Below are positions 330 through 50,994 of a stretch of 64,000 nt of DNA, piece by piece. Source of the DNA: Isurus oxyrinchus (Eukaryota). Under the pieces are notes generated by a model. It had not been told where the DNA came from. It did no database searches and was given only the letters and a program-made list of their open reading frames with translations. A program made the translations under genes and the position numbers. The DNA lies in the NCBI GenBank assembly GCA_026770705.1, contig JANJGN010000189.1, positions 744,001-808,000 of the forward strand, written 5' to 3'. How positions within the stretch are numbered: the stretch's first letter is position 1; each line of letters opens with the position of its first letter.

Positions 330-578
330 GGTAAACAGAACGTGCTGATTACTGAGGCCCGGAACACAACCAGAGACACAACTAGTGAGGGGGAGACCCC
401 AGCTCCCCGGGATCTCTCTGAAAGTCCAGTGGGAGGCGATGCTGGACATGGGAACGCCGAAAATCCCGCCGAGCTTCTCTACGCCAATCCCCAAGTTTTG
501 AGGGTTTCCAGTGGTGATGGGTCTGTCCACAGGGAAGAGGAGACGGAATACGCACAGATCAGGTTCGAGCATAACTGA
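330..578 (+). CDS. Siglec-like terminal cytoplasmic exon, copy 1 (degenerate ITIM LLYANP + ITSM-like TEYAQI); rest of gene upstream of window
   Basis: Acceptor ttctctgtag|, phase 0, GKQNVLITEA...ELLYANPQV...EETEYAQIRFEHN*; paralogous to 3215 and 18961 exons. Confidence 0.85.
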   Translation, partial: GKQNVLITEARNTTRDTTSEGETPAPRDLSESPVGGDAGHGNAENPAELLYANPQVLRVSSGDGSVHREEETEYAQIRFEHN

Positions 579-3214: not shown

Positions 3215-3463
3215 GGTAAACAGAACGTGCTGATTACTGAGCCCCGGAACACAACCAGAGACACAACTAGTGAGGGGGAGACCCCAGCTCCCCGGGGTCT
3301 CTCTGAAGGTCCAGTGGGAGGCGATGCTGGACATGGAATCCCTGACAATCCCAACGACCTTCTCTACGCCAATACGGAAGTCTTCAGGGTGCCCAGTGGT
3401 GATGGGTCTGTCCACAGGGAAGAGGAGACGGAATACGCACAGATCAGATTCAAGCGAAACTGA
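3215..3463 (+). CDS. Siglec-like terminal cytoplasmic exon, copy 2 (LLYANT + TEYAQI)
   Basis: Same acceptor and frame as 330 exon; GKQNVLITEP...DLLYANTEV...EETEYAQIRFKRN*. Confidence 0.85.
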   Translation, partial: GKQNVLITEPRNTTRDTTSEGETPAPRGLSEGPVGGDAGHGIPDNPNDLLYANTEVFRVPSGDGSVHREEETEYAQIRFKRN

Positions 3464-6819: not shown

Positions 6820-6977
6820 CACTTTGTTCCAACTTCCTCATTTTGACTCACAGAGACACATCAGCCCTTTCTAATTAAACACACAGAGGGAGCAGCACAG
6901 GAAGAGGTCATTCAGCCCAAGCAGAGCGTGTGGGCAGTTCCTCCCCAGGCGAGCAGTCGGACAGGTCCTGGGTAAGT
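6820..6977 (+). promoter_or_regulatory. Gene A putative promoter + non-coding first exon (ends 6971)
   Basis: acttcctcattt (Ets/PU.1-like), tgactca (AP-1), strong donor tgg|gtaagt; block repeated at 42.2, 48.0 and 48.6 kb. Confidence 0.6.
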
Positions 6978-7421
6978 AACGGAACGATTGGAATTCACTT
7001 CCACCACCAACACCGTCCTTTGTTGATGTTGTGACTTTATAAAGACAGATTCCAATGATTGATGCCTTTGAAAGATTTCTACTGATTATTGAGATCTGGG
7101 TGTGAGGCTCAAGTCTGTTGTACAGAACATCTTTCTAGCTCAAGGGATGATGGAAGTGCAGGGACATGAGCTTTGGGACATCCTGAGGTGGTGAAAGGTG
7201 CTATAGAAATGCAAGTCCTTCATTGTTTTTCTTTCTGAAAGCCTTGTAATTCTCTGCAGAGCACCAATCATCCCACAGAGAATCAAATTTGTCTGTGAAG
7301 ATATTCTCTAAAAGCAGTTCTGATCTCTCGAGAGCATTCGGACAAGAGGTGAATTCTCATTAACTCCTTTCTCTTTCAGAACTTCAGAGTTAGAAGCTGA
7401 GGAAATATCTGGGAGTGGACA

Positions 7422-7461
7422 ATGATCGGTAAATCTTACTTCCTCCTGTCACTTCTTCAAG
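7422..7461 (+). CDS. Gene A leader exon MIGKSYFLLSLLQ (exon starts 7380)
   Basis: ctctttcag| acceptor, ATG 7422, hydrophobic stretch, phase-1 donor caag|gtaata. Confidence 0.85.
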
Positions 7462-10398
7462 GTAATACCATCGTCAGCTCGGACAGATTTATGGTTAATA
7501 GTCTTTGTAAAAGATCATTCTTATTGAGCTCTGATAGGGAACTGATTCCGCAGTGATCCAGTGTACAAACTCACACCAAGTCCCATTCACCCATCACCCC
7601 TGTGTTCACTGATATACACTGACTCCCTGTCTGACAGCAGAATTGGAGGAGACCAGAGGTCTTGGAGGGTTGTAGGGGCTGGATGAGTTTACAGGGATAG
7701 GCAGGTTTGTAGCAGTGAGAGCAGAATCTTAAAATTCAGCTGCTGTCGGATGTTGGTCAGTGAGCGAAGGGGATTGATGGGTTGAGTAGAGAAGCAGGGA
7801 TAAAAACTGATGGATGAAGCCTATCCTAATGTGAGGTCTCCGATAGCAATGCCCTGAAATTTGTGTCTTTTGCTGATTTTAGACAGAATTTCCCATGAAG
7901 ACAACACAGCAGCCCCTAGAATAGACAGGCTGTTCAGTGTCACACTTCCTGTCCATTCTCACCTTGCTAGATACTTCAATAAGGGAGCAAGATAACTGAA
8001 AGAGAGAACAAAGGCAAAACTGTCTGTGTGTAAAGGTGTCAAATATTCTGAGTTATCATGAGTGTCTCTGATCTGCTGCATAGTTTAAATTTCACAGAAT
8101 CTGAGCACTTTGCAGCTCAGAGAGAGACCATTGACTCACTGCCTGAAAGGGCGGTGGAAGCAGATTCAACAGGAACTTTCAGAAGGGGAACTGGATAAAT
8201 ACTTGAAGGGAAATTTGCAGGGCTGTGTGAAAGGTGCTGGAGAGGAATTGGGAAAGAGCCAGCACATGCACGATGGGTCACATGAGCTCCTCCTGTGTTG
8301 TATCATTCGACAATCAGACAATTTTAGATCCTTATCAACAAATCTTCAGAATCCTGCTGAATCACAGATATTTCAGAAGGACAGGGAACATGAGGTTTCT
8401 GGTATCAACGCTTCATGTGGGGCCCAGTTCAGTTTGAACAAAAAAAATGACAACAGCATCTTTGAAAGTCATGAAACCAACACAGCGGCACCTCCGACAC
8501 ATGCAGAGCTCAGGCTAGAGGCGCTTTGTTAGTGTGTTTCACAGGGTCTGCTGGAGTAGGGTCAGTGCTGAGCTTGGGGACAAGTCAGTCTACAATGCTG
8601 CATCGGAATCAACAATACAACAATATAGGGTTTGGATCAGAAATAATCCCTTAGACAATGAGGATCCGAAGAGATTCCTTAGACAATGAGAATCCAAAGA
8701 GATTCCTTACTCCATTGGTTGTCTAACTGGGGTCCATGATTTTCCAAGGGGTCCTTGGCAGAATCAAATTATCGAGCAATAGTGTGTAAAACACCGGAGA
8801 GAACGGGAAAGGTGGGATCAATGGAAAACTGTTCACTCTGTTTACACTAATGGGAGTTAGTCTCAGTAATGGAGACCATGAAACTATCATCGATTGTCAT
8901 ACACACCCATCTGGTTCACTAATGGCCTTTAGGGAAGGAAATCTGCCGTCTATATCTGGTCTGGCCTACATGTGACTCCAGACTCATAGCAACGTGGTTC
9001 CTCTGAAATGTCCGAGCAAACCATCCAGTTCTCACCATGCTAGAAACTTCAATAAGGGAGTAAGATAACTGAAAGAGAGAAGGAAGGTAAAGCTGCTCTT
9101 GTGGATAGATGTCAAATATCCTGAGTGATCATGATTGTCTCTACTCTGCTACAGAGATTATGTCACGGGACATTAGAGATGGGCAGCAAATGCTGGCCTT
9201 GGCAGCGACGCCCACATCCCATGAATGAATACATTTACAAAATCTTATTACTTGGAAGGTGCAAGTGCAGGTTGTTATGATCCTTGAGCAGACCCTCTCA
9301 GCACTGACCCTACTCCAGCAGACCCTGTGAAACACACTAACAAAGCGCCTCTCGCCTGAGCTCTGCATGTGTCGGAGGTGCCGCTGTGGTGGGTTCATGA
9401 CTTTCAAAGATGGTGTTGTTTATTTGTTCAAACTGAACTGGGCCCCACACAAAACGCTGATACCAGAAACTTCTTGTTCCCTGTCCTTCTGAAATATCCG
9501 TGACTTCAGCAGGATTCTGAAGAGTTGCTGATGGAGGAACAGGCACCCAATTTTTTTTGATAATTTACAGTTAGGAACCAATAATATTTTGTTTCAAGTA
9601 GACGAGGTTTGAGATTTAAGATGCTTGCAAAGAGAATAAAGCTACAAGATTCCATGGCTTTTAAACAAATAAAAATAAACTTTACTGCACCAGCTCAGAA
9701 AGATAAAATAATTCACAATATCCACCTTATACCCTAACATTCTGGATTAATATGAGCTCATGTGAATTAACAGGCAAACTGTGGTCTCACAGCCACATTA
9801 TTCATTAAATTGTAAACGCAACCAAGATAGTGCCCATGGATTTCACAACAACCCACCCGGACATCAGTGAACACTGTCAGTCAACCAATCTCACTGAAAC
9901 TCTGTTTCTCTCATGAGGGATTCCAATCTTCAACTTCGAAGATCTTGCCTTGGAATTCTCTCCAAAAGTCGCTTCAACTCGGATGGCCTCAGTGACGTTC
10001 CACCTCACAGGGTTTCCATCTCTTCTCCTGAGGCTCCATTGCCCTGGATTCCCGACAATATACTCAAGCACCTCTAGGATTAGATGAAAGGTTTTGATTG
10101 ACTGGGTAGACAGAGAATGTTCCCTCTTGTGGGCAGGAGAATAACTAGAGGCCGAGTGATTGGTGATTCCTTAAACATTGAAGAGGGAATGAACACCAAT
10201 CAGATTGAATCAGATTAGCCAATCAGCTGTGTTGAAGAGCAGACAAGAATGTTAGGCTAATTAGTGATTCATGACGGTGATAATGGGGGGAGTTCTGAGG
10301 GCTCCTAATCCATTGTCCTGTCTTGTAAATCTGCACTGAATGGATCTCAATTGGTGGGTCTTGTAGACACTGTGTTGGGTGGAAGACTGGCTTCACTA

Positions 10399-10672
10399 AG
10401 GGGAAGCGGTAGCAGAGAGGTATTGTCACTGGGCTCGTATTCCAGAGGCCCAGGGTGATGCTCTGGGGCCCTGGGTGTGAATCCTATCACAGCAGATGAA
10501 TGGGATTAAAAAGCCTGGTTCACTGATCACCTATAGGGAAGGAAATCTGCCACCCTTACCCAGTCTGGCCTACATGTCACTCCAAACCCACAGCAATGTG
10601 GTTGACTCTTAAATACCTCTGATGGACATGGGATGGGCAATAAATCCCATGAATGAATAATTTGAAAAAAAG
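10399..10672 (+). mobile_element. SINE insertion with A-rich tail
   Basis: Present in gene A intron, absent at the paralogous site in gene C (~49725); body shared with 34680-34960 and 58270-58590. Confidence 0.75.
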
Positions 10673-10893
10673 CTAAACAGGTTCCTGAGGACCATGAGCC
10701 AATGTAGAATGAACTTGTCCACTCCTGCGTCCAAGATTCTCTTCCATCCATTGTGAAACCTTGGGGAGTTCCTTGTGTGTCCTGTAGATGGTCCACACTG
10801 CAGCCAATGTGCCCCAGTGATGGAGGGGGTGGATATCAAGTCTAGTGGATCGAAAAAACATCCAGAGTTAAATATTGATATTTCTCTCCCCAG

Positions 10894-11259
10894 TTGGACT
10901 GTCACAAGAGTGGAAAGGTGACACTCCACGAGAGGTGACAGCGCAGGAAGGTTCCTGTGTACAGATTCCCTGTCATTACAGTTATCCATCACATTTGGAA
11001 AACCAACCACGAGTTGGAGTCTGGTTTAATAATGAGGAATGGAGAACATCGTCTATAGCCTTTCACTCCAAGGATCACAGTCACGAGTTACCACGGTTCC
11101 ACCATCGGACCCGGCTGTCTGGAGACCTGAAAGATGGTGACTGTTCTCTGATTATAAATAACATCAGACGGGAAGATGCGGGACCTTATTTTTTCAGAAT
11201 AGAATTTGACAGCAGGAATAGTTACAGCTACTATCCTGTAACCCAGCTTCACGTTTCTG
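10894..11259 (+). CDS. Gene A Siglec V-set exon with essential Arg
   Basis: 366 nt, phase 1/1; VTAQEGSCVQIPCHYSYP..W..RLSGDLKDGDCSLII...DAGPYFFRIE: Siglec Cys pattern (B-E disulfide, no F-strand Cys) and the YFFR arginine. Confidence 0.95.
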
Positions 11260-11735
11260 GTAAGTGCTGTGTTATAATTACTCAACAATTCACATTCAAC
11301 ACTCAATGGGAAATAACACAAACTGTGACGTTTACATATTAACACAAAACACAGGTTATTATAACACATTGTCTTCATTCTCAATAACCTGCTGATAGCT
11401 TCCAGTTCAGTCCTAAAGCAACCTCTAATAATTACTTTAATATCAATGATTAAAAGCATTAACTGTATTATCAGGTTATCCACTCCCATCAATCTCTCCT
11501 GTCCTGTTTAAAAGTCTGACGTATCGATAAAAGAAAGATGTGCATTTCTGCAGCGCAATTTACCACCTCAGGAGGATCCAAATCCCTTCACAGCCAATGA
11601 AATTATTCCTGAATTGTGGTCACAGATGTTAAACACAGCAGGCAGTTTGTGCACAGCAAGATCCAACAAACCACAAGGTGATAAATCACCCAGATCACTG
11701 AGGAAATGAGAAGCCAGTGAACTCAAACCTCTGGT

Positions 11736-11867
11736 CTGATGAAGAGTCATACGGACTCGAAACGTTAACCCTGTCTTCCTCTCCACTGATACTGTCAGAC
11801 CTGCTGAGTCTTTCCAGCAATTTTTGTTTTGGTTTCAGATTTCCAGCATCCGCAGTATTCTGCTTTT
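11736..11867 (+). mobile_element. Penelope-like terminal-repeat fragment with minimal hammerhead core
   Basis: ctgatga-a-gagtc-atacg-gactc-gaaa-cgtt; flanked by ~20-bp duplication (11720-11739 / 11868-11887); similar to the end of the Penelope at 46606-46715. Confidence 0.7.
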
Positions 11868-12119
11868 AACTCCAATCTCTGGTCTGAGCCTCTTCTCTCA
11901 TCCAGTATTCTCAATTCACATGTCTCGGAGTGAACGTGTATTAAGCTGAGAGACAGAAACACTACTGCCAAAGAGCAAGAAAATCTTTCCTGATCATTGT
12001 AACCTCTCAGTTCTGATATCATCCTTGTAAAAGTGCTTTCTCTTGTGGGACTGTGATTTCTATTTGAACTGATGCTTCACATTATATTTCTCTAAAAGGA
12101 TCCATTTTCTGTCTGTTAG

Positions 12120-27838: not shown

Positions 27839-28604
27839 TATTGGACTAATCTCCAGGCGAGGTTGGCTGGATGGATTATTGACAAGGTCCATTCACCCTG
27901 TAAAGAGTTTCTCTGGTTTGAAATACCCGATCAAACATCGAGTTCTGTGTCTAAACCTTGTGTTGAAAAGACACCTTTCCAGCTCTTCACCTGCCATTAG
28001 CTTGTTGAGTCTTCACACGCTCCGTCTGTCCGTGACCAACCCCTCTTAGCTCATCCTTTCCTTGTCGTACATCGAGCTGTTCATCCTGACGGGTTCCATC
28101 CTTCCCAGTAACACTCCATCTCCGACATCAAACTAACTCCCAACACGTTGATGAATTGTATGGATTCCAGCGTCAGTTGGTTCTGTCTGAGGCTGTTTCT
28201 CTGATCGGGGACCGAGCTGTTCTGAACGGACATTGTGTTCAGCAGTTCTTATTGCAGATCAGGCTGTTCAACCAATGCTGCTGTTCACTGAGGTGACTCC
28301 GATTCTACATTCACACATTAATGATCTCATGTCCAGCAGCAAACATCTGAATGAAGCCAGGTTCAAGAAAAAACCCAGCTGCTTGATCCGACAGTTATCT
28401 GTTCAGGCATGGCCCCTTGTTCCAAATAACAAACATTATTTAAAAATAGTCATCACATGAGCCTGGTTAACAAGGAAATGAAACCATGAACAATTTGCAG
28501 TAAAGTGAAACATACAGGACTAATCTATTTATATTGAGCTGATGATATAGAATTTTAGATGAGGCATGTTGCTAATTTCAAACATCATCTGAATTACGGT
28601 AGTT

Positions 28605-29035
28605 CTGACAGTGCAGCACTCCCTCAGTACTGACCCTTTGACAGTGCAGCACTCCCTCAGTACTGACCCTCTGACAGTGCAGCACTCCCTCAGTACTGAC
28701 CCTCCGACAGTGCAGCACTCCCTCAGTACTGACCCTCTGACAGTGCAGCACTCCCTCAGTACTGACACTCTGACAGTGCAGCACTCCCTCAGTACTGATC
28801 CTCTGACCGTGCAGCACTCCCTCAGTACTGACACTCTGACAGTGCAGCACTCCCTTAGTACTGACCCATTGACAGTACAGCACTCCCTCAGTACTGACCC
28901 TCTGACTGTACAGCACTCCCTCAGTACTGACCCTCTGACAGTGCAGCACTCCCTCAGCCCTGACCCTCTGACAGTGCAGCACTCCCTCAGCACTGACCCT
29001 CTGACAGTGCAGCACCCCCTGAGCACTCCCTCACT
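28605..29035. repeat. 33-bp minisatellite
   Basis: ~13 units. Confidence 0.95.
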
Positions 29036-30042: not shown

Positions 30043-30088
30043 ATGGGAGAGGTCGGTCTGATATTGATCTTCATCAGCTTGCTGCAAG
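30043..30088 (+). CDS. Gene B leader exon MGEVGLILIFISLLQ (exon starts 30029)
   Basis: ccatttag| acceptor, aagATGg context, phase-1 donor caag|gtac. Confidence 0.85.
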
Positions 30089-30908: not shown

Positions 30909-31265
30909 GAGTGACGTCAGAGGGATGGTCTATGAAGGCACTGTCTCGGAGGGCCATCAGCAGCTCTTGTGTGGTTATTCCGTGTAGCTTTGACTTTCCT
31001 TCCCACTCTTACACAGCACTGCATGGAGCTTGGTATAAATATTGGTATAGATGGAAATATACCATCACATACACCAAAGATCCCAACTATGCGATGGCCA
31101 CATTCGTGGGACGTGCTAAAATAATCGGTGACTTGGAAGGGAAGAATTGTTCGGTGAGGATTGACAGTCTCAGAGCTGAAGACAGTGATGTGTATTACTT
31201 CTACGTGGATGCGGAGGGCTACACAGATCACACTTTTACACAACCAGTCCAACTCCAGGTTCTTG
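30909..31265 (+). CDS. Gene B MAG-like Siglec V-set exon, essential Arg replaced by Tyr
   Basis: 357 nt, phase 1/1; SCVVIPCSFDFP..LHGAWY..FVGRAKIIGDLEGKNCSV..YYFYVDAEGYTDHTF. Confidence 0.92.
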
Positions 31266-31397: not shown

Positions 31398-31816
31398 CAG
31401 TACTGAGGGAGTTCCACACTGTCAGAGGGTCAGTAATGAGGGAGTGCTGCACTGTCGGAGGGTCAGTACTGAGGGAGTGCTGCACTGTCAGAGGGTCAGT
31501 ACTGAGCGAGTGCCACACTGTCAGAGCATCAGTACTGCGGGAGTGCTGCACTGTCGGACGGTCAGTACTGAGGGAGTGCTACACTGTCGGAGGGTGAGTA
31601 CTGAGGGAGTGCTGCACTGTCACCGGGTCAGTACTGATGGAGTGCTGTACTGTCGGAGGGTCAGTACTGAGGGAGTGCTGCACTGTCGGAGGGTCAGTAC
31701 TGATGGAGTGCTGTACTGTCGGAGGGTCAGTACAGGGGGAGTTCTGCACTGTCGGAGGGTGAGTACCGAGGGGGTGCTGCACCTTTGGGGGGTCAGTATT
31801 GAGGGAGTGCTGCACC
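31398..31816. repeat. 33-bp minisatellite
   Basis: Tandem units. Confidence 0.95.
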
Positions 31817-33389: not shown

Positions 33390-33677
33390 ATGCTCCAGAT
33401 AAGCCAGTTATTGTGCTCCTGAAGGATTTACAGGAGGGGACTCCTGCACATATCATCTGTAAATGCCTCTACACCTGCCCTGATAACCACCCCAATCTAA
33501 CCTGGAGTGAATTGCTGACTTCATCGGTCAGCAACATTACAGAGAACGGTGGTGAGGTTTCCGCTCTACTGACCTTTAACCCTTCGTTCAAGCATCATGG
33601 ACGAACTCTCCGCTGTACGTGCGACTACCCTCAAACCAGCCATCGAGTGGTCAGCTCCGTTACTCTGAGTGTAAAGT
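33390..33677 (+). CDS. Gene B Siglec domain-2 exon
   Basis: 288 nt, phase 1/1; DAPDKPVI..ICKCLYTCPDNHPNLTW..LTFNPSFKHHGRTLRCTCDYP. Confidence 0.92.
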
Positions 33678-34185: not shown

Positions 34186-34443
34186 ATTCTCCTCACAACA
34201 CGTCTGTCAGGATGATACTGGAAAAAGGAAAGGTGATTTCTCTAAGTTGTTCCAGTGACGGGAATCCAGCAGTCCACAATTTCACCTGGTTTAAGATCTC
34301 CCAAGGAAAGGTGATGAATCTCGCGCTCGCTGGTCAAACTATTACAGTTCCTTATGGATTCGATGAGGAAATCTCCTACTACTGTGAAGCAACAAGTATC
34401 CTGGGCAGTTCCCAGTCTCTGCCCATTAGAATTCCCACTGAAT
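34186..34443 (+). CDS. Gene B C2-set exon (CD22-like)
   Basis: 258 nt, phase 1/1; YSPHNTSV..SLSCSSDGNPAVHNFTWFK..YYCEATSILGSSQS. Confidence 0.9.
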
Positions 34444-38105: not shown

Positions 38106-38996
38106 CACCCTCCAACAGTGCAGATCTCCCTAATTACTGATCCTCCAACAGTGCAGCACTCCCTCAGTACTGACCCTCCGACAGTGCAGCACTCCCTCAG
38201 TACTGACCCTGCAACAGTGCAGCACTCTTCCAGCACTGACCCTCCGACAATGCAGCACTTCCTCAGTAATGACCCTCCGACAGAGCAGCACTCCCTCAGT
38301 ACTGAACATCTGACAGTGCAGCAATCTTCCAATCCTGACCCTCCGACAGTGCAGCATTCTTCCAGTACTGACCCTCCGACAGTGCAGCATTCCCTCAGTA
38401 CTGACCCTCCGACAGTGCATCACTCCCTCAGTACTGACCATCCAACAGTGCAGCACTCCTTCAGTACTGACCATCTGACAGTGCAGCACTCCCTCAGTAC
38501 TGACCATCCAACAGTGCTGCACTCCCTCAGTACTGACCCTCTGACAGTGCAGTACTCTCTCAGTACTGACCCTCTGACAGTGCAGCACTCCCTCAGTACT
38601 GACCCTCTGACAATGCAGCACTCTCTCAGTACTGATCCTCCGACATTGCAGCACTCCCTCAGTACTGACCATCCAACAGTGCAGCACTCCATCAGTACTG
38701 AACCTCCAACAGTGCAGCACTCCCTCAGTACTGACCATCCAACAGTGCAGCACTCCCTCAGTACTGACCATCCAACAGTGCAGCACTCCCTCAGTACTGA
38801 CCCTCCGACAGTGCCGCACTCCCTCAGTACTGACCATCCAACTGTGCAGCACTCCCTCAGTACTCATTCTCCGACAGTGAAGTACTCGCTCAATACTGAC
38901 TATGCGGCAGTGCAGCTTTCACAGTACCCACCCTCCAACAGTGCAGCACTCCCTCAGTACTGACCCTCTGACAGTACAGCACTCCCTCAGTACTGA
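38106..38996. repeat. 33-bp minisatellite (~27 units)
   Basis: Tandem units; source of the 291-aa spurious ORF. Confidence 0.95.
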
Positions 38997-39127: not shown

Positions 39128-39409
39128 ACACACCACAGAATCTCTCAATTAATTCTCTTGATATGATTAACGTTTCATCGATCAATATAATTGAGGGGAA
39201 TTCTGCAGTGATAATCTGCTCTGTCGAGAGCTTCCCAGCTTCTAACCTGACGTGGCGACATCTTAATGTCCCAATGAACAGAACAAGTTCCAACAATGAT
39301 CTGTGGTTGGTGATTCCTCACGTTACATCCAGGGACACTGGAGACTATCAGTGTGTGGCAGAGAATGAACATGGAGCAGTGGAGGGGTTCATAACCATCA
39401 CTGTGGAAC
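39128..39409 (+). CDS. Gene B C2 exon, gene-A repeat type
   Basis: 282 nt open, near-identical to 16715-16996. Confidence 0.9.
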
Positions 39410-39888: not shown

Positions 39889-40170
39889 ATGCTCCACAGA
39901 ACCTCTCAATTACTTCTCTTGATATGATTAACGCTTCATCGATCAATATAATTGAGGGGAATTCTACAGTGATAATCTGCTCTGTCGAGAGCTTCCCAGC
40001 TTCTAACCTGACGTGGCGACATCTTAATGTCCCAATGAACAGAACAAGTTCCAACAATGAGCTGTGGTTGGTGATTCCTCACGTTACATCCAGGGACACT
40101 GGAGACTATCAGTGTGTGGCAGAGAATGAACATGGAGCAGTGGAGGGATTCATAACCATCACTGTGGAAC
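39889..40170 (+). CDS. Gene B C2 exon, gene-A repeat type
   Basis: 282 nt open, AG/GT intact. Confidence 0.9.
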
Positions 40171-41436: not shown

Positions 41437-41533
41437 GGCGAGATTCCAATGAATGGAAAGCAGGATTGCTTGGAGCTGGAATCTGTTTGAGTGTTGGACT
41501 GAGTGGATTCTTCATCTTCAAGTGTGTGAGAAA
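41437..41533 (+). CDS. Gene B transmembrane exon (phase 1 to 2)
   Basis: ttttacag| ... aa|gtaagt; RRDSNEWK-AGLLGAGICLSVGLSGFFIF-KCVR: 20-aa uncharged span followed by basic residues. Confidence 0.85.
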
Positions 41534-42169: not shown

Positions 42170-42487
42170 CACAATTGTTCCCCAATTCCTGATTTGACTC
42201 ACAGAGACACATCAACCCTTTCTAATTAAACACACAGAGGGAGCAGCACAGGAAGAGGTCATTCAGCCCAAGCAGAGCGTGTGGGCAGTTCCTCCCCAGG
42301 CGAGCAGTCGGACAGGTACTGGGTAAGTAACGGAACGATTGGAATTCACTTCCACCACCAACACCGTCCTTTGTTGATGTTGTGACTTTATAAAGACAGA
42401 TTCCAATGATTGATGCCTTTGAAAGATTTCTACTGATTATTGAGATCTGGGTGTGAGGCTCAAGTCTGTTGTACAGAACATCTTTCT
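42170..42487 (+). promoter_or_regulatory. Orphan copy of gene A promoter/exon 1 (exon ends 42322)
   Basis: Near-identical to 6820-7137. Confidence 0.7.
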
Positions 42488-42833: not shown

Positions 42834-42920
42834 AAGAGAGGTGAGGGGAAAGCAGGAATCAAATCGAACCACCGTGTTGATGAATATCGAGGTCATGTTT
42901 ATGAAAACTGTGAGCGTGGT
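42834..42920 (+). pseudogene. Degenerate cytoplasmic exon KRGEGKAGIKSNHRVDEYRGHVYENCE
   Basis: Aligns with the 44724 exon (KSN...YxNC); acceptor cag>cgg; 3' end runs into LINE sequence. Confidence 0.55.
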
Positions 42921-43073
42921 TGGGCTTTGAGGAATCAGGTGAGTCACACACCACAGGATCCCCAGCCTCTCAGCTGCTCCAGTAGCCTGGTTATTGATAT
43001 GGCTGCTCCAGTCCTGTATCTGCAATGTTTTATACAGTCACTCCCAAACCCAACCAAACTCACACCCAACACC

Positions 43074-44625
43074 ATTCAGAATCAATAATCAAACCCCGAT
43101 CAGAATCAATAATCAAACCCCGTTCAGAATCAATAATCAAACCCCGTTCAGAATCAATAATCACACCCCGTTCAGAATCAATAATCAAACCCCGTTCAGT
43201 ATCAATAACCAAACTCCGTTCAGTAACAATAATAAAACCCGTTCAGAATCAATAATCAAACCCCGATCAGTATCAATAATCAAACCCCGTTCAGAATTAA
43301 TAATCAAACCCCTTTCAGAATCAATAATCAATCCCCGTTCAGTATCAATAAACAAACCCCGTTCAGTATCAATAATCAAACCCTGTTCAGAATTAATAAT
43401 CAAACCCCTTTCAGAATCAATAATCAATCCCCGTTCAGTATCAATAAACAAACCCAGTTCAGAATTAATAATCAAACCCCGTTCAGAATCAATAATCAAA
43501 CCGCGTACAGAATCAATAATCAATCCCCGTTCAGTATACATAATCAAACCCCGTTCAGTATCAATAAACCAACCCCGTTTAGTATCAATAATCAAACCCC
43601 TTTCAGAATCAATAATCAATCCCCGTTCAGTATCAATAAACAAACCCCGTTCAGAATTAATAATCAAACCCCGCTCAGTATCAATAATCAAACCGCGTTC
43701 AGAATCAATAATCAAACCCCGTTCAGTATACATAATCAAACCCCGTTCAGTATCAATAATCCAACCCCGTTTAGTATCAATAATCAAACCCCATTCAGAA
43801 TCAATAATCAAACCCCTTTCAGAATCAATAATCAAAACCCAGTTCAGAATCAAGAATCAAACACCGTTCAGTATCAATAATCAAACCCCGTTCAGAATCA
43901 ATAATCAAACACTGTTCAGAATCAATAATCAAACCCCATTCAGTATCAATAATCAAACTCCGTTCAGGATCAATAATCAAACACCGTTCAGAATCAATAA
44001 TCAAACCCCGTTCAATATCAATAATCAAACCCCGTTCAATATCAATAATCTAACTTCGTTCAGGATCAATAATCAAACCCCGTTCAGATTCAATAATCAA
44101 AACCCTTTCAGAATCAATAATCAAACCCCATTCAGTATCAATAATCAAACCCCGTTCAGTATCAATAATCAAACCCTGTTCAGAATTAAAAATCAAACCT
44201 GTTCAGTATCAATAATCTAATCCCGTTCAGAATCAATAATCAAACCCCGTTCAGAATTAAAAATCAAACCCCGTTCAGTATCAATAATCTAACCCCGTTC
44301 AGTATTAAAAATCAAACCCCGTTCAGTATCAATAATCTAACCCCGTTCAGTATCAATAATCAAACCCCATTCAGTATCAATAATCAAACCCCGTTCAGAA
44401 TCAATAATCAAACCCTGTTCAGTATCAATAATCAAACTACGTTCAGGATCAATAATCAAACTCCGTTCAGATTCAATAATCAAAACCCATTCAGAATAAA
44501 TAATCAAACCCTTTTCATTATCAATAATCAAACCCCGTTCAGAATTAAAAATCAAACCCCGTTCAGAATCAATAATCAAACATCGTTCAGGATCAATAAT
44601 CAAACCCCGTTCAGTATCAATAATT
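43074..44625. repeat. 24-bp satellite (tcagaatcaataatcaaaccccgt)n, ~64 units
   Basis: Direct tandem units; 8-aa periodic ORFs. Confidence 0.97.
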
Positions 44626-47949: not shown

Positions 47950-48180
47950 CACTTGGTACCAAGCACTTCCTCATTTTGACTCACAGTGACACATCCACCC
48001 TTTTTAATTAAACACAAATAGGGAGCAGCACAGGAAGAGGTCATTCAGCCCAAGCAGAGCGTGTGGGCAGTTCCTCCCCAGGCGAGCAGTCGGACAGGTC
48101 CGGGGTAAGTAACGGAATGATTGGAAATCACGGGGGGAGTTCTGAGGGCTCCTAATCCATTGTCCTGTCTTGTAAATCAG
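47950..48180 (+). pseudogene. Third promoter/exon-1 copy fused to intron sequence matching 10286-10335
   Basis: Exon ends 48104; the leader exon region is deleted. Confidence 0.65.
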
Positions 48181-48599: not shown

Positions 48600-48758
48600 T
48601 CACTTTGATCCAACTTCCTCATTTTGACTCACAGAGACACATCAACCCTTTCTCATTAAATACACAGAGGGAGCAGCACAGGAAGAGGTCATTCAGCCCA
48701 AGCAGAGCGTGTGGGCAGTTCCTCCCCAGGCGAGCAGTCGGACAGGTCCTGGGTAAGT
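48600..48758 (+). promoter_or_regulatory. Gene C promoter/non-coding exon 1 (ends 48752)
   Basis: Near-identical to 6820-6977. Confidence 0.65.
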
Positions 48759-49241: not shown

Positions 49242-49944
49242 GTAATATCATCGTCAGCTTGGACAGATTTATAGTTAACAGTCTTTGTAAAAGATCATTC
49301 TTATCTCTTTATCTCTGTAACCTCCTGCAACGCAACCAATCAACTTCCCAGATCTCTGTGTTACTCCAATTCTGGCCTCTTGACCATCCCCCAATTCCCA
49401 TCACTCCAATACTGGCGGCCGTGCCTACAGCTGCCTGGGACCTGAGCTCTGGAATTCACTCCCTAAACCTCGGCGATGGAGGAGATCAGAGGGTTTCATT
49501 TTACTGAGAATCACCACGACCACATCACAGCTGCAGTGAGAATAGACAGAGAGTCCAGCCCTCACACTTCCTGCACAGTTTCACCATAGCAACCACAATA
49601 TGGAAATTTAAAAATACTGAAAGTTAAACTGAAGCTCAGCCCATTCAGTGTTGAGAGATGAGATATTTACACAGTTTCCCTGTGTATCTTGTAGACACTG
49701 TGTTGGATGGAAGACTGGCTTCACTAAACAGGGTCCTGAGGACCATGAGCCAATGTAGAATGAACTTGTCCACTCCTGAGTCCAGGATTCTCTTCTATCT
49801 GTTGTGAAACCTTGGGGAGTTCCTTGTGTGTCCTGTAGATGGTCCACACTGCAGCCACTGTGCCCCAGTGATGGAGGGGGTGGATATCGAGTCTAGTGGA
49901 TCTACAAACCATCCAGAGTCAAATATTGATATTTCTCTCCCCAG

Positions 49945-50318
49945 TTGGACAGTCACAAGAGTGGAAAGGTGACACTCCACGAGAGGTGACAGCACAGGAA
50001 GGTTCATGTGTACAGATTCCATGTCATTACAGTTACTTATCAAATTTCGTAGGGAGATCACGTGCAGAATCTGGTTGAAAGGAATAGATGGGAACCCACA
50101 GCCTAAATGGTCTATAGCCTTTCACTCCGAGGGTCACAATCACAGGGATCAAAGATTCCGCCATCGTACCCAGCTGTCTGGAGACCTGAAAGATGGCGAC
50201 TGTTCCCTGATTATAAACAACATCAGACGGGAAGATGCAGGACCTTATTTTTTCAGAATAGAGTTTGACAGCAGGAATTGTTACAGCTACTATCCTGTAA
50301 CCCAGCTTCACGTTTCTG
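49945..50318 (+). pseudogene. Gene C V-set exon with 1-nt frameshift near 50067
   Basis: 374 nt; paralog of 10894-11259; YFFR arginine retained. Confidence 0.9.
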
Positions 50319-50841
50319 GTAAGTACTGTGTTATAATTACTCAACAATTCACATCCAACACTCAATGGGAAATAACACAAACTGTGATGTTTACATAATA
50401 ACACAAAACACAGCTTATTATAACACACTGTCTGATTCTCAATAACCTGGTGATAGCTTCCAGTTCAGTCCCAAAGCAACCTCTAAAAATCACTTTAATA
50501 TCAATGATGAAAAGCATTAACTGTACCGACATCTTTCATTCTACATCAGCACTCCCTCAGCGCAGACCCTCTGACAGTGCAGCCCGTTCTCAGTATCCAC
50601 ATTCTCAGGCCACTCAAAGTGCTTCACAGTCGATAGAAGTTAATTGATCTTTATATGATTATTGCTGAATGAAGAGACAAGCTGTCTAAACTTCTCATAT
50701 CGCAAACAGCATTCTCCATGGCAACACCTCCACCTATCAGAGACCACTTGCCAACCAATCAGCACTGTCTTTCCATGAAGTATAAATTGTTGTTCACTTT
50801 CTGTTGGTAATCGTGCGAACGGGGTTCTTGATTCCTGCCAT

Positions 50842-50994
50842 GACATCTGAATGTCCAAATGAACAGAACAAGTTCCAACAATGAGCTGTGGTTGCTGATT
50901 CCTCACGTTACATCCAGGGACACTGGCGACTATCAGTGTGTGGCAGAGAATGAACATGGAGCAGTGGAGGGGTTCATAACCATCACTGTGGAAT
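50842..50994 (+). pseudogene. Gene C 3' half of a C2 repeat exon
   Basis: MNRTSSNNELWLLIPHVTSRDTGDYQC..ITVE|gtgagt; 5' half replaced by unrelated sequence; domain-2 exon absent. Confidence 0.85.

What the first reader, a model, noticed from the sequence alone, without database searches (positions are those of the whole stretch)
30909..31265. MAG-like V domain with Tyr replacing the essential Arg and an aromatic/basic C-C' segment
Seen: YYFYVDAEGYTDHTF (TAC at 31202-31204) aligns with MAG's YYFRGDLGGYNQYTF as I recall it; Arg to TAC needs at least two substitutions and all gene B Ig exons are open. The C strand reads WYKYWYRWKY. Known: the F-strand Arg salt-bridges sialic acid. Inference: a functional Siglec-fold receptor repurposed for a non-sialic ligand.
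Basis: partly seen in the sequence, partly recalled or inferred. Interest (0 to 1): 0.7.

Follow-up and report, generated by a model that had tools for sequence, protein, structure and literature searches.

The report
Ancient tyrosine-for-arginine shark Siglec receptor
This intact shark immune-receptor gene has tyrosine where Siglecs keep the arginine that grips sialic acid, a swap shared by every shark and ray relative found together with an unusually fixed tryptophan-rich loop, so it likely senses a different, still unknown and unchanging surface molecule.

Summary
Observation confirmed. The V exon (30909-31265) has TAC/Tyr at the position of MAG Arg118 and belongs to an open 603-aa gene (leader, V, four C2, TM, tail ending in an ITIM match). 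The swap is old, not decay of this copy. Tyr stands in 33 of 33 close protein records from 16 named shark, skate and ray species, and in 16 of 16 full-length copies in this genome. Public contigs show spliced forms of the family. The AlphaFold model (pLDDT 90) is a Siglec V fold. The C-C' loop, variable in most Siglecs, carries invariant Y-W-x-x-W-K-Y, and Ala replaces the bulky residue beside the Tyr. 'MAG-like' is only the best hit: the trees do not resolve the sister group. The same head sits on three different stalks and tails, and about 100 further copies are truncated relics. Likely an inhibitory-type receptor with a rebuilt aromatic pocket for a conserved non-canonical ligand. A lipid or glycolipid head group is my lead guess, untested. 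Arg-less Siglecs are known in primates, and this scan noted Arg-less shark Siglec branches before on other DNA (unchecked whether the same clade). New variant of a known kind.

The parts
30043..30088 (+). Leader (signal peptide) exon of gene B
   Evidence: tblastn with P0001; GT donor, in frame; joined to the V exon in contigs of runs X5 and X6
30909..31265 (+). V-set exon, Tyr-type Siglec head (the finding)
   Evidence: model pLDDT 90.1, best folds sialoadhesin and MAG at Z 18.5 and 18.4
31202..31204 (+). TAC codon: Tyr98 at the essential-Arg site of strand F
   Evidence: TAC in 6 and TAT in 10 of 16 full-length genome copies
31031..31060 (+). End of strand C and C-C' loop (residues 41-50), with invariant W41, K43, Y44, W45, W48, K49, Y50
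33390..33677 (+). Domain 2 (C2-set) exon, with the Cys that would pair with V-domain Cys36 of the full protein
   Evidence: pairing inferred from MAG homology
34186..34443 (+). C2 exon 2 (the unit repeated 5-11 times in other copies)
39128..39409 (+). C2 exon 3
39889..40170 (+). C2 exon 4
41437..41533 (+). Transmembrane exon, no charged residue in the hydrophobic core
42238..42322 (+). Cytoplasmic exon 1
42837..42938 (+). Optional in-frame cytoplasmic exon with a further Tyr motif
   Evidence: present in Carcharodon isoform P0008, absent from P0009
44724..44840 (+). Last coding exon: DLYANC motif and terminal ITIM match SVYGNL, then stop

Best explanation
Gene B is an intact member of an old shark-and-ray lineage of Siglec-fold receptors with Tyr in place of the sialic-acid-binding Arg, and it likely docks on a chemically unchanging membrane-surface ligand (lead guess: a lipid or glycolipid head group) through a rebuilt aromatic face and its Trp/Lys loop, then would signal through its tail tyrosines as an inhibitory receptor. 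Shown: the open 603-aa gene, Tyr fixation, the invariant loop, the Siglec fold of the model, splicing of the family, and three stalk/tail types under one head. Inferred: loss of the carboxylate salt bridge; Ala40 making room for the Tyr ring; ligand contact by Tyr98, Trp45, Trp48 and Lys49; SHP-1/2 recruitment by SVYGNL; the ligand class.
For: Tyr in 33 of 33 records at 55% identity or more, from 16 named species (10 sharks, 6 batoids) and one unnamed record (names). One clade at 100/100 and 100/99. V domains of 17 rows (window plus one per species) line up without a gap at 60-70% identity; 5 of 7 loop columns are invariant against 17 of 59 other non-strand columns (Fisher p 0.036, region chosen after seeing it). 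The C-C' region is more conserved than the whole domain here (0.77 vs 0.71) and in MAG (0.78 vs 0.62) but less in shark Arg-type Siglecs (0.51 vs 0.65). A fixed loop fits a ligand that does not evolve. Ala40 in 25 of 26 Tyr-type domains against 1 of 183 Arg-type. Among 16 full-length genome copies, 10 synonymous against 11 non-synonymous variants, pN/pS 0.29, binomial p 0.007. Precedent: Siglec-6 binds the bilayer through Lys126-Trp127, with W127A losing about 95% of glycolipid-liposome binding and R122A only about 25% (PMC12953582, passages and abstract read). Arg mutants of the human Siglecs that bound cell lines showed negligible binding (PMC7547722, passages).
Against: No binding data. The Siglec-6 Lys-Trp pair lies a few residues after its Arg, not in the C-C' loop, so the precedent is by chemistry and not by position. 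Half of the sialic-acid pocket is kept (Trp6 invariant, His/Tyr107, mostly Thr108). The V domain has no net positive charge (0 here, -5 to +2 in five relatives). A strict ITIM match is present in only 4 of 18 relatives' annotated tails, several of them incomplete. The selection test uses related copies and ignores CpG bias.
Confidence: 0.4

Rival explanations
1. The aromatic GFCC' face is a protein interface: the head binds a conserved host protein or itself (homodimer or homophilic adhesion), as CD2/SLAM-family, CEACAM and PD-1-type V domains do (recalled).
For: Residues 42, 44, 48, 50, 96, 98 and 109 are aromatic in nearly all members, on the face that forms V-V interfaces in other Ig domains (recalled). 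Very long stalks of 11 repeated C2 exons in two copies suit cell-cell contact.
Against: Protein-protein immune interfaces usually drift with their partners (general knowledge), whereas this loop is nearly frozen from sharks to rays. No partner gene was identified.
Confidence: 0.27
2. A re-tuned lectin for a neutral or sulfated glycan: Tyr98 and the Trp pair stack on sugar rings in the old pocket.
For: A-strand Trp6 and G-strand His/Tyr107 are kept; the loop is conserved as in MAG, whose Tyr65 contacts the glycan (PMC7226832, passages).
Against: Few invariant polar residues line the site: positions 100-106 vary.
Confidence: 0.13
3. It still binds sialosides, by a non-canonical site or with Lys49 taking over, as Siglec-6 does.
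For: [quoted passage not shown] Lys49 is invariant.
Against: Those Siglecs keep their Arg and need it for free glycans. Here Tyr is fixed and Ala40 co-varies. The FG loop is acidic (D100, E102, D106).
Confidence: 0.12
4. No true ligand: a structural, tonic-signalling or decaying by-product of an unstable array, like human Siglec-XII.
For: About 100 of about 118 copies of this exon in the genome are truncated. Siglec-XII lost its Arg and bound none of the cell lines tested.
Against: Invariant surface-loop residues across 16 species, spliced transcripts in two organisms, and open leader and V exons in all 16 full-length copies.
Confidence: 0.08

Closest known systems
MAG / Siglec-4 and sialoadhesin / Siglec-1 V domains
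   Same: Best sequence and fold matches (E 1.2e-14; Z 18.4-18.5, rmsd 1.5-1.7 A over 112-114 residues). Same three V-domain Cys, Phe in place of the F-strand Cys, A-strand Trp, and a conserved C-C' loop as in MAG.
   Different: Arg replaced by Tyr; MAG's Asn125 and Tyr127 sites are variable and His/Tyr; about 30% identity; not shown to be the MAG orthologue; multicopy, with swapped tails.
Human Siglec-XII (Arg to Cys)
   Same: Siglec architecture and ITIM-type tail without the essential Arg (PMC11343606, passages).
   Different: Siglec-XII's loss is human-specific and the gene is being eliminated. Here the loss predates the shark-ray split, is fixed, and comes with co-varying conserved residues.
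Human Siglec-6 non-canonical glycolipid and bilayer binding
   Same: A surface Trp next to a Lys; partial independence from Arg (PMC12953582, PMC10122656; passages).
   Different: Siglec-6 keeps its Arg and its Lys-Trp lies just after it in sequence; here the Trp/Lys motif is in the C-C' loop.
Uncharacterised bony-vertebrate Siglec-like clade with Trp at the Arg site (records named CD22-like or MAG-like from turtle, tailed frog and tilapia)
   Same: Aromatic residue at the Arg site (36 of 261 other domains); Tyr at positions 44 and 50; sister to this clade at 90/92 in one tree.
   Different: Only 25-35% identical and lacks the two loop Trp. The grouping did not hold with domain 2 added, and AU tests reject neither it nor the alternatives.
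Primate paired Siglecs (Siglec-5/14, -11/16)
   Same: One head on different tails: Siglec-5/14 and -11/16 share V domains (PMC7547722); here one Tyr head sits on three stalk/tail types.
   Different: None of the Tyr-head TM segments examined has a charged residue in its hydrophobic core, so no activating twin was found.

Membership tests
Siglec family | N-terminal V-set domain followed by C2-set domains, type I membrane protein | tested here: met
   603-aa model; Pfam V-set above cut-off, Ig families for C2 exons 2 and 3, none for domain 2
Siglec family | Siglec-type V fold with intra-sheet B-E disulfide and no F-strand Cys | tested here: met
   C25 and C80 invariant, Phe97 on strand F; top fold matches all Siglecs; the bond itself is inferred
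Siglec family | Cys pair for the domain 1-domain 2 disulfide | tested here: met
   V Cys20 invariant; the domain-2 CP motif Cys matches that of MAG in 6 of 6 members checked; one genome copy lacks domain 2
Siglec family | Essential F-strand Arg | tested here: not met
   Tyr in the window, in 16 of 16 genome copies and in 33 of 33 relatives
Siglec family | Aromatic residues on strands A and G flanking the pocket | tested here: inconclusive
   Trp6 in 25 of 26; position 107 His in 22, Tyr in 4
Siglec family | Sialic-acid-dependent binding | not testable with these tools
   needs a binding assay
Inhibitory (ITIM) Siglecs | Cytoplasmic ITIM [I/V/L/S]xYxx[L/V] and uncharged TM | tested here: met
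   SVYGNL at the C terminus; pattern as given in PMC7226832; phosphatase binding untested
MAG (Siglec-4) orthologues | Groups with MAG in trees; keeps R118, Y65, N125, Y127, T128 | tested here: not met
   R118 lost, N125 site variable; grouping unsupported but not rejected (FastTree 0.65, SH-aLRT 46, AU p 0.34)
Bony-vertebrate Trp-type Siglec-like clade | Monophyly with that clade | tested here: inconclusive
   90/92; unresolved; AU p 0.41 and 0.33

The most novel reading that the evidence does not exclude
Jawed vertebrates had from the start a second, non-sialic arm of the Siglec family with an aromatic residue at the Arg site (Tyr in sharks and rays, Trp in teleosts, amphibians and turtles; no mammalian member seen here). 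The shark form is a Siglec fold turned into a membrane-lipid or neutral-glycolipid sensor whose fixed head is swapped between different stalks and signalling tails inside an array of hundreds of genes.
Probability: 0.15. Interest if true: 0.8.

Novelty: new variant of a known kind. Interest (0 to 1): 0.52.

Why it matters
Natural Arg-less Siglecs are known mainly as recent primate losses of uncertain use. A lineage that has kept Tyr and a frozen Trp-rich loop from sharks to rays gives a clean natural test of what the Siglec fold can recognise without sialic acid, and names the residues to mutate. It also warns that shark genes annotated as MAG-, CD22- or sialoadhesin-like include receptors that probably are not sialic-acid lectins. 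The genome holds at least 150 Arg-type and 16 full Tyr-type V exons, a Siglec array far larger than the human set, though haplotype duplication in the assembly may inflate the counts.

Tried and rejected
Recent decay of this copy: rejected. Artefact of alignment register: rejected; the flanking residues align without gaps and gene A has Arg in the same column. MAG orthology: not supported. Searches of this genome with reptile-type MAG queries found no exon above 44% identity (150 of 948 and 71 of 2295 candidates scored), which does not show absence. A search with a Trp-clade protein (P0129) found only one 39% match. The first structure prediction with 21 sequences was poor (pLDDT 63.8) and was not used. 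The protein search at near lengths found nothing. The protein atlas gave only generic V-set and Siglec clusters. The run search listed no holder on record as RNA; the runs laid are RNA by guess only, and contig depth was not used to rank expression. One search was run in the wrong frame and replaced. An apparent second Arg-to-Tyr case in P0232 was a gap artefact; the protein has Arg. The DNA that follows the break in truncated copies resembles a retroelement gag by recall only; Pfam and PDB gave no match. Literature: ten searches listed no paper on shark Siglecs lacking Arg; only open-licence PMC and bioRxiv are covered, and no supplements were read.

Full report
The observation. Window 30909-31265 is a 357-nt phase-1 exon with AG and GT ends. 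It encodes a V-set domain (Pfam V-set, 32 bits, cut-off 26). The codon at 31202-31204 is TAC, Tyr98 of the exon's frame. HMMER aligns it column for column with the Arg of MAG, sialoadhesin and Siglec-5, and the Arg-type V exon of neighbouring gene A has Arg in the same column. Arg to Tyr takes at least two base changes, from CGC or CGT.

The gene. Homologues place ten coding exons between 30043 and 44840. Nine of them splice with canonical ends into an open 603-aa protein: leader, V, four C2 domains, an uncharged TM core, and a tail with DLYANC and a terminal ITIM match SVYGNL. It is 94% identical over all 603 residues to a Carcharodon record (P0009). The tenth exon (42837-42938) can be added in frame. 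The host is a shark close to Carcharodon and Cetorhinus (V domains 91-97% identical).

The Tyr is ancient. Three homologue searches and a scan of 1.8 billion representatives show a sharp gap: members at 62% identity or more, everything else at 40% or less. All 33 records at 55% or more have Tyr. They include isoforms and near-duplicates and come from 16 named species: Carcharodon, Cetorhinus, Scyliorhinus, Hemiscyllium, two Chiloscyllium, Rhincodon, Stegostoma, Heptranchias, Pristiophorus, Pristis, Mobula, Hemitrygon, Amblyraja, Leucoraja and Rhinoraja, plus one unnamed record. No chimaera or bony-fish member appeared. Among 261 other Siglec-like V domains the site is Arg in 186, Trp in 36 and Tyr in 1. 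The clade is one side of a branch at 100/100 on V alone (9 of 64 rows) and 100/99 on domains 1 and 2 (6 of 35 rows). Trees used subsets chosen to span the groups; rows lacking a normal domain 2 were dropped.

Its sister is not resolved. FastTree joined it to MAG at 0.65. The careful V tree joined it to a bony-vertebrate clade with Trp at the Arg site at 90/92. A smaller tree gave MAG at 46. The two-domain trees left a polytomy. AU tests rejected none of MAG, the Trp clade or the shark Arg-type clade (p 0.05-0.41). 'MAG-like' is therefore a best hit, not orthology.

The pocket looks rebuilt rather than broken. With 83 sequences AlphaFold gave pLDDT 90.1. The closest solved folds are sialoadhesin and MAG (Z 18.5 and 18.4, rmsd 1.7 and 1.5 A); many rows of the alignment were Siglecs, so this is expected. 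Strand C ends at 43 and C' starts at 51. Across the window and one record per species (17 rows, no gaps, mean identity 0.70), 40 of 114 columns are invariant, among them Y44, W45, W48, K49 and Y50 in the loop, and Y96 and Y98 on strand F. The C-C' loop is described as highly variable across Siglecs and as setting specificity (PMC12953582, passages read). It is variable in shark Arg-type domains (0.51) but not here (0.77) or in MAG (0.78). Two Trp in the nine residues after the C-strand Trp occur in 26 of 26 Tyr-type and 1 of 258 other domains. Position 40, which by V-domain strand register (recalled) lies beside residue 98, is Ala in 25 of 26 against 1 of 183 Arg-type domains. Of MAG's five sialic-acid contacts (PMC7226832, passages), Arg118 is lost, Asn125 is variable, Tyr127 is His or Tyr, Thr128 is mostly kept and Tyr65 aligns to a mostly aromatic site. 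Against a strongly basic surface: residue 47 varies and the domain's net charge is about zero.

Copies in this genome. Of 150 scored matches (951 candidates), 16 are full-length Tyr-type V exons at 95-99% identity and 103 stop at codon 95-97. All 16 have Tyr, as TAC in 6 and TAT in 10; pN/pS is 0.29, with 10 synonymous and 11 non-synonymous variants (p 0.007; copies are related, 10 distinct exons). For the 15 other copies I mapped 20-30 kb each. Eight have the window's body and tail with all exons open, one of them lacking domain 2. One has a broken C2 exon and an incomplete tail. Four have 5-6 repeats of C2 exon 2, two with one frameshifted repeat, and the TM and tail type used by Arg-type genes. 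Two have 11 repeats and a third TM type. An Arg-type V was also seen upstream of the window's kind of tail. Heads and tails are thus exchanged as modules. The truncated copies share one junction (98 exact matches), stop three codons later, and in three cases examined have no C2 exon in the next 7-8 kb. Their pN/pS is 0.56 (15 copies; p 0.12), so I read them as one old breakage spread by segmental duplication. Arg-type V exons number at least 150 (all 150 scored), and 30 of 30 inspected keep Arg. Counts may include unpurged haplotypes.

Expression. No listed run is on record as RNA. In runs guessed to be RNA, contigs cover the exon and stop at its ends. One contig in run X6 (organism B) carries the end of the leader exon, the whole V exon and the start of domain 2; one in X4 (organism A) joins V to domain 2; X5 joins leader to V. 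The Tyr codon is TAC or TAT in them. This shows spliced transcripts of the family in two organisms. It does not identify this copy, tissue or level. The truncated form also appears in X3 and X4.

Mechanism. Functional receptor without the canonical salt bridge: about 0.9. The ligand is open. A loop frozen from sharks to rays argues for a ligand that does not evolve. Exposed Trp with Lys is how Siglec-6 engages bilayers (PMC12953582; PMC10122656, passages). I therefore lead with a lipid or glycolipid head group (0.40), then a protein or homophilic partner (0.27), a neutral glycan (0.13), non-canonical sialoside binding (0.12) and no ligand (0.08). Inhibitory signalling rests on a motif match only.

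Novelty. Loss of the essential Arg is known in human Siglec-XII (PMC11343606 and PMC7547722, passages). Ten searches of the open library listed nothing on shark Siglecs without it; the whale-shark genome paper mentions Siglecs once, as a jawed-vertebrate gain (PMC8455134, passage). PMC13262535 and PMC7916940 were checked by passages and did not bear on it. Earlier notes of this scan report Arg-less Siglec branches of sharks and rays in other genomes. Three concern 381-letter stretches against 357 here, and a look-up by this sequence found no look-alike, so they may be another clade; I did not test this. Verdict: real, old and conserved; a new variant of a known kind, with a testable but unknown ligand.

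Noticed in passing
G000 contigs C52, C71, C121, C150, C189, C323, C385, C546, C557, C646, C724, C838, C926, C1130, C1184, C1343: A very large Siglec array: at least 150 Arg-type V exons, 16 full and about 100 truncated Tyr-type V exons, in both orientations. Unpurged haplotypes may inflate it.
   Followed up: partly
L017-L032, L063-L066 (e.g. G000:C52:89307-89609): Truncated Tyr-type copies keep the leader exon and V to codon 96, then run into foreign DNA that resembles a retroelement gag by recall (no Pfam or PDB match). The junction is also in contigs of runs X3 and X4.
   Followed up: partly
G000 whole-genome searches; L067 = G000:C8:88359467-88362766: No canonical MAG V exon was found; the best match (41-44%) is a lone Arg-bearing Siglec V exon on C8 that falls in no group of the tree. 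Whether sharks lack MAG is open.
   Followed up: partly
proteins P0027, P0060, P0090, P0096, P0122 and others: A bony-vertebrate Siglec-like clade (turtle, tailed frog, caecilian, teleosts) with Trp, or Gly/Ile/Ser, at the Arg site; one side of a branch at 96/90 and 100/99; not described in the papers seen.
   Followed up: partly
window 7413-19209: Gene A: leader, Arg-type V (10894-11258 region), domain 2, then six C2 repeats of which one is internally deleted (12638), one has a stop (13423-13701) and one lacks its second Cys (15452-15733); no TM exon was found before its last tail exon at 18961-19209, though an N stretch lies at 18053-18234.
   Followed up: partly
window 49914-50993: Frameshifted Arg-type V exon followed by a 5'-truncated C2 exon: a pseudogene.
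   Followed up: partly
window 330-578, 1715-1825, 3215-3463, 6885-6971, 48000-48098, 48660-48752: Orphan or duplicated cytoplasmic exons of both tail types, showing exon-level duplication in the array.
   Followed up: no
window 43068-44624: 24-bp minisatellite of about 65 copies in the last intron of gene B; 33-bp satellite arrays at 28604-29027, 31398-31815 and 38107-38996.
   Followed up: no
G000:C121:1419380 and C150:1149024 onward: Two Tyr-head genes with 11 tandem open copies of one 258-nt C2 exon at about 1.7-kb spacing, predicting a stalk of 14 Ig domains.
   Followed up: partly
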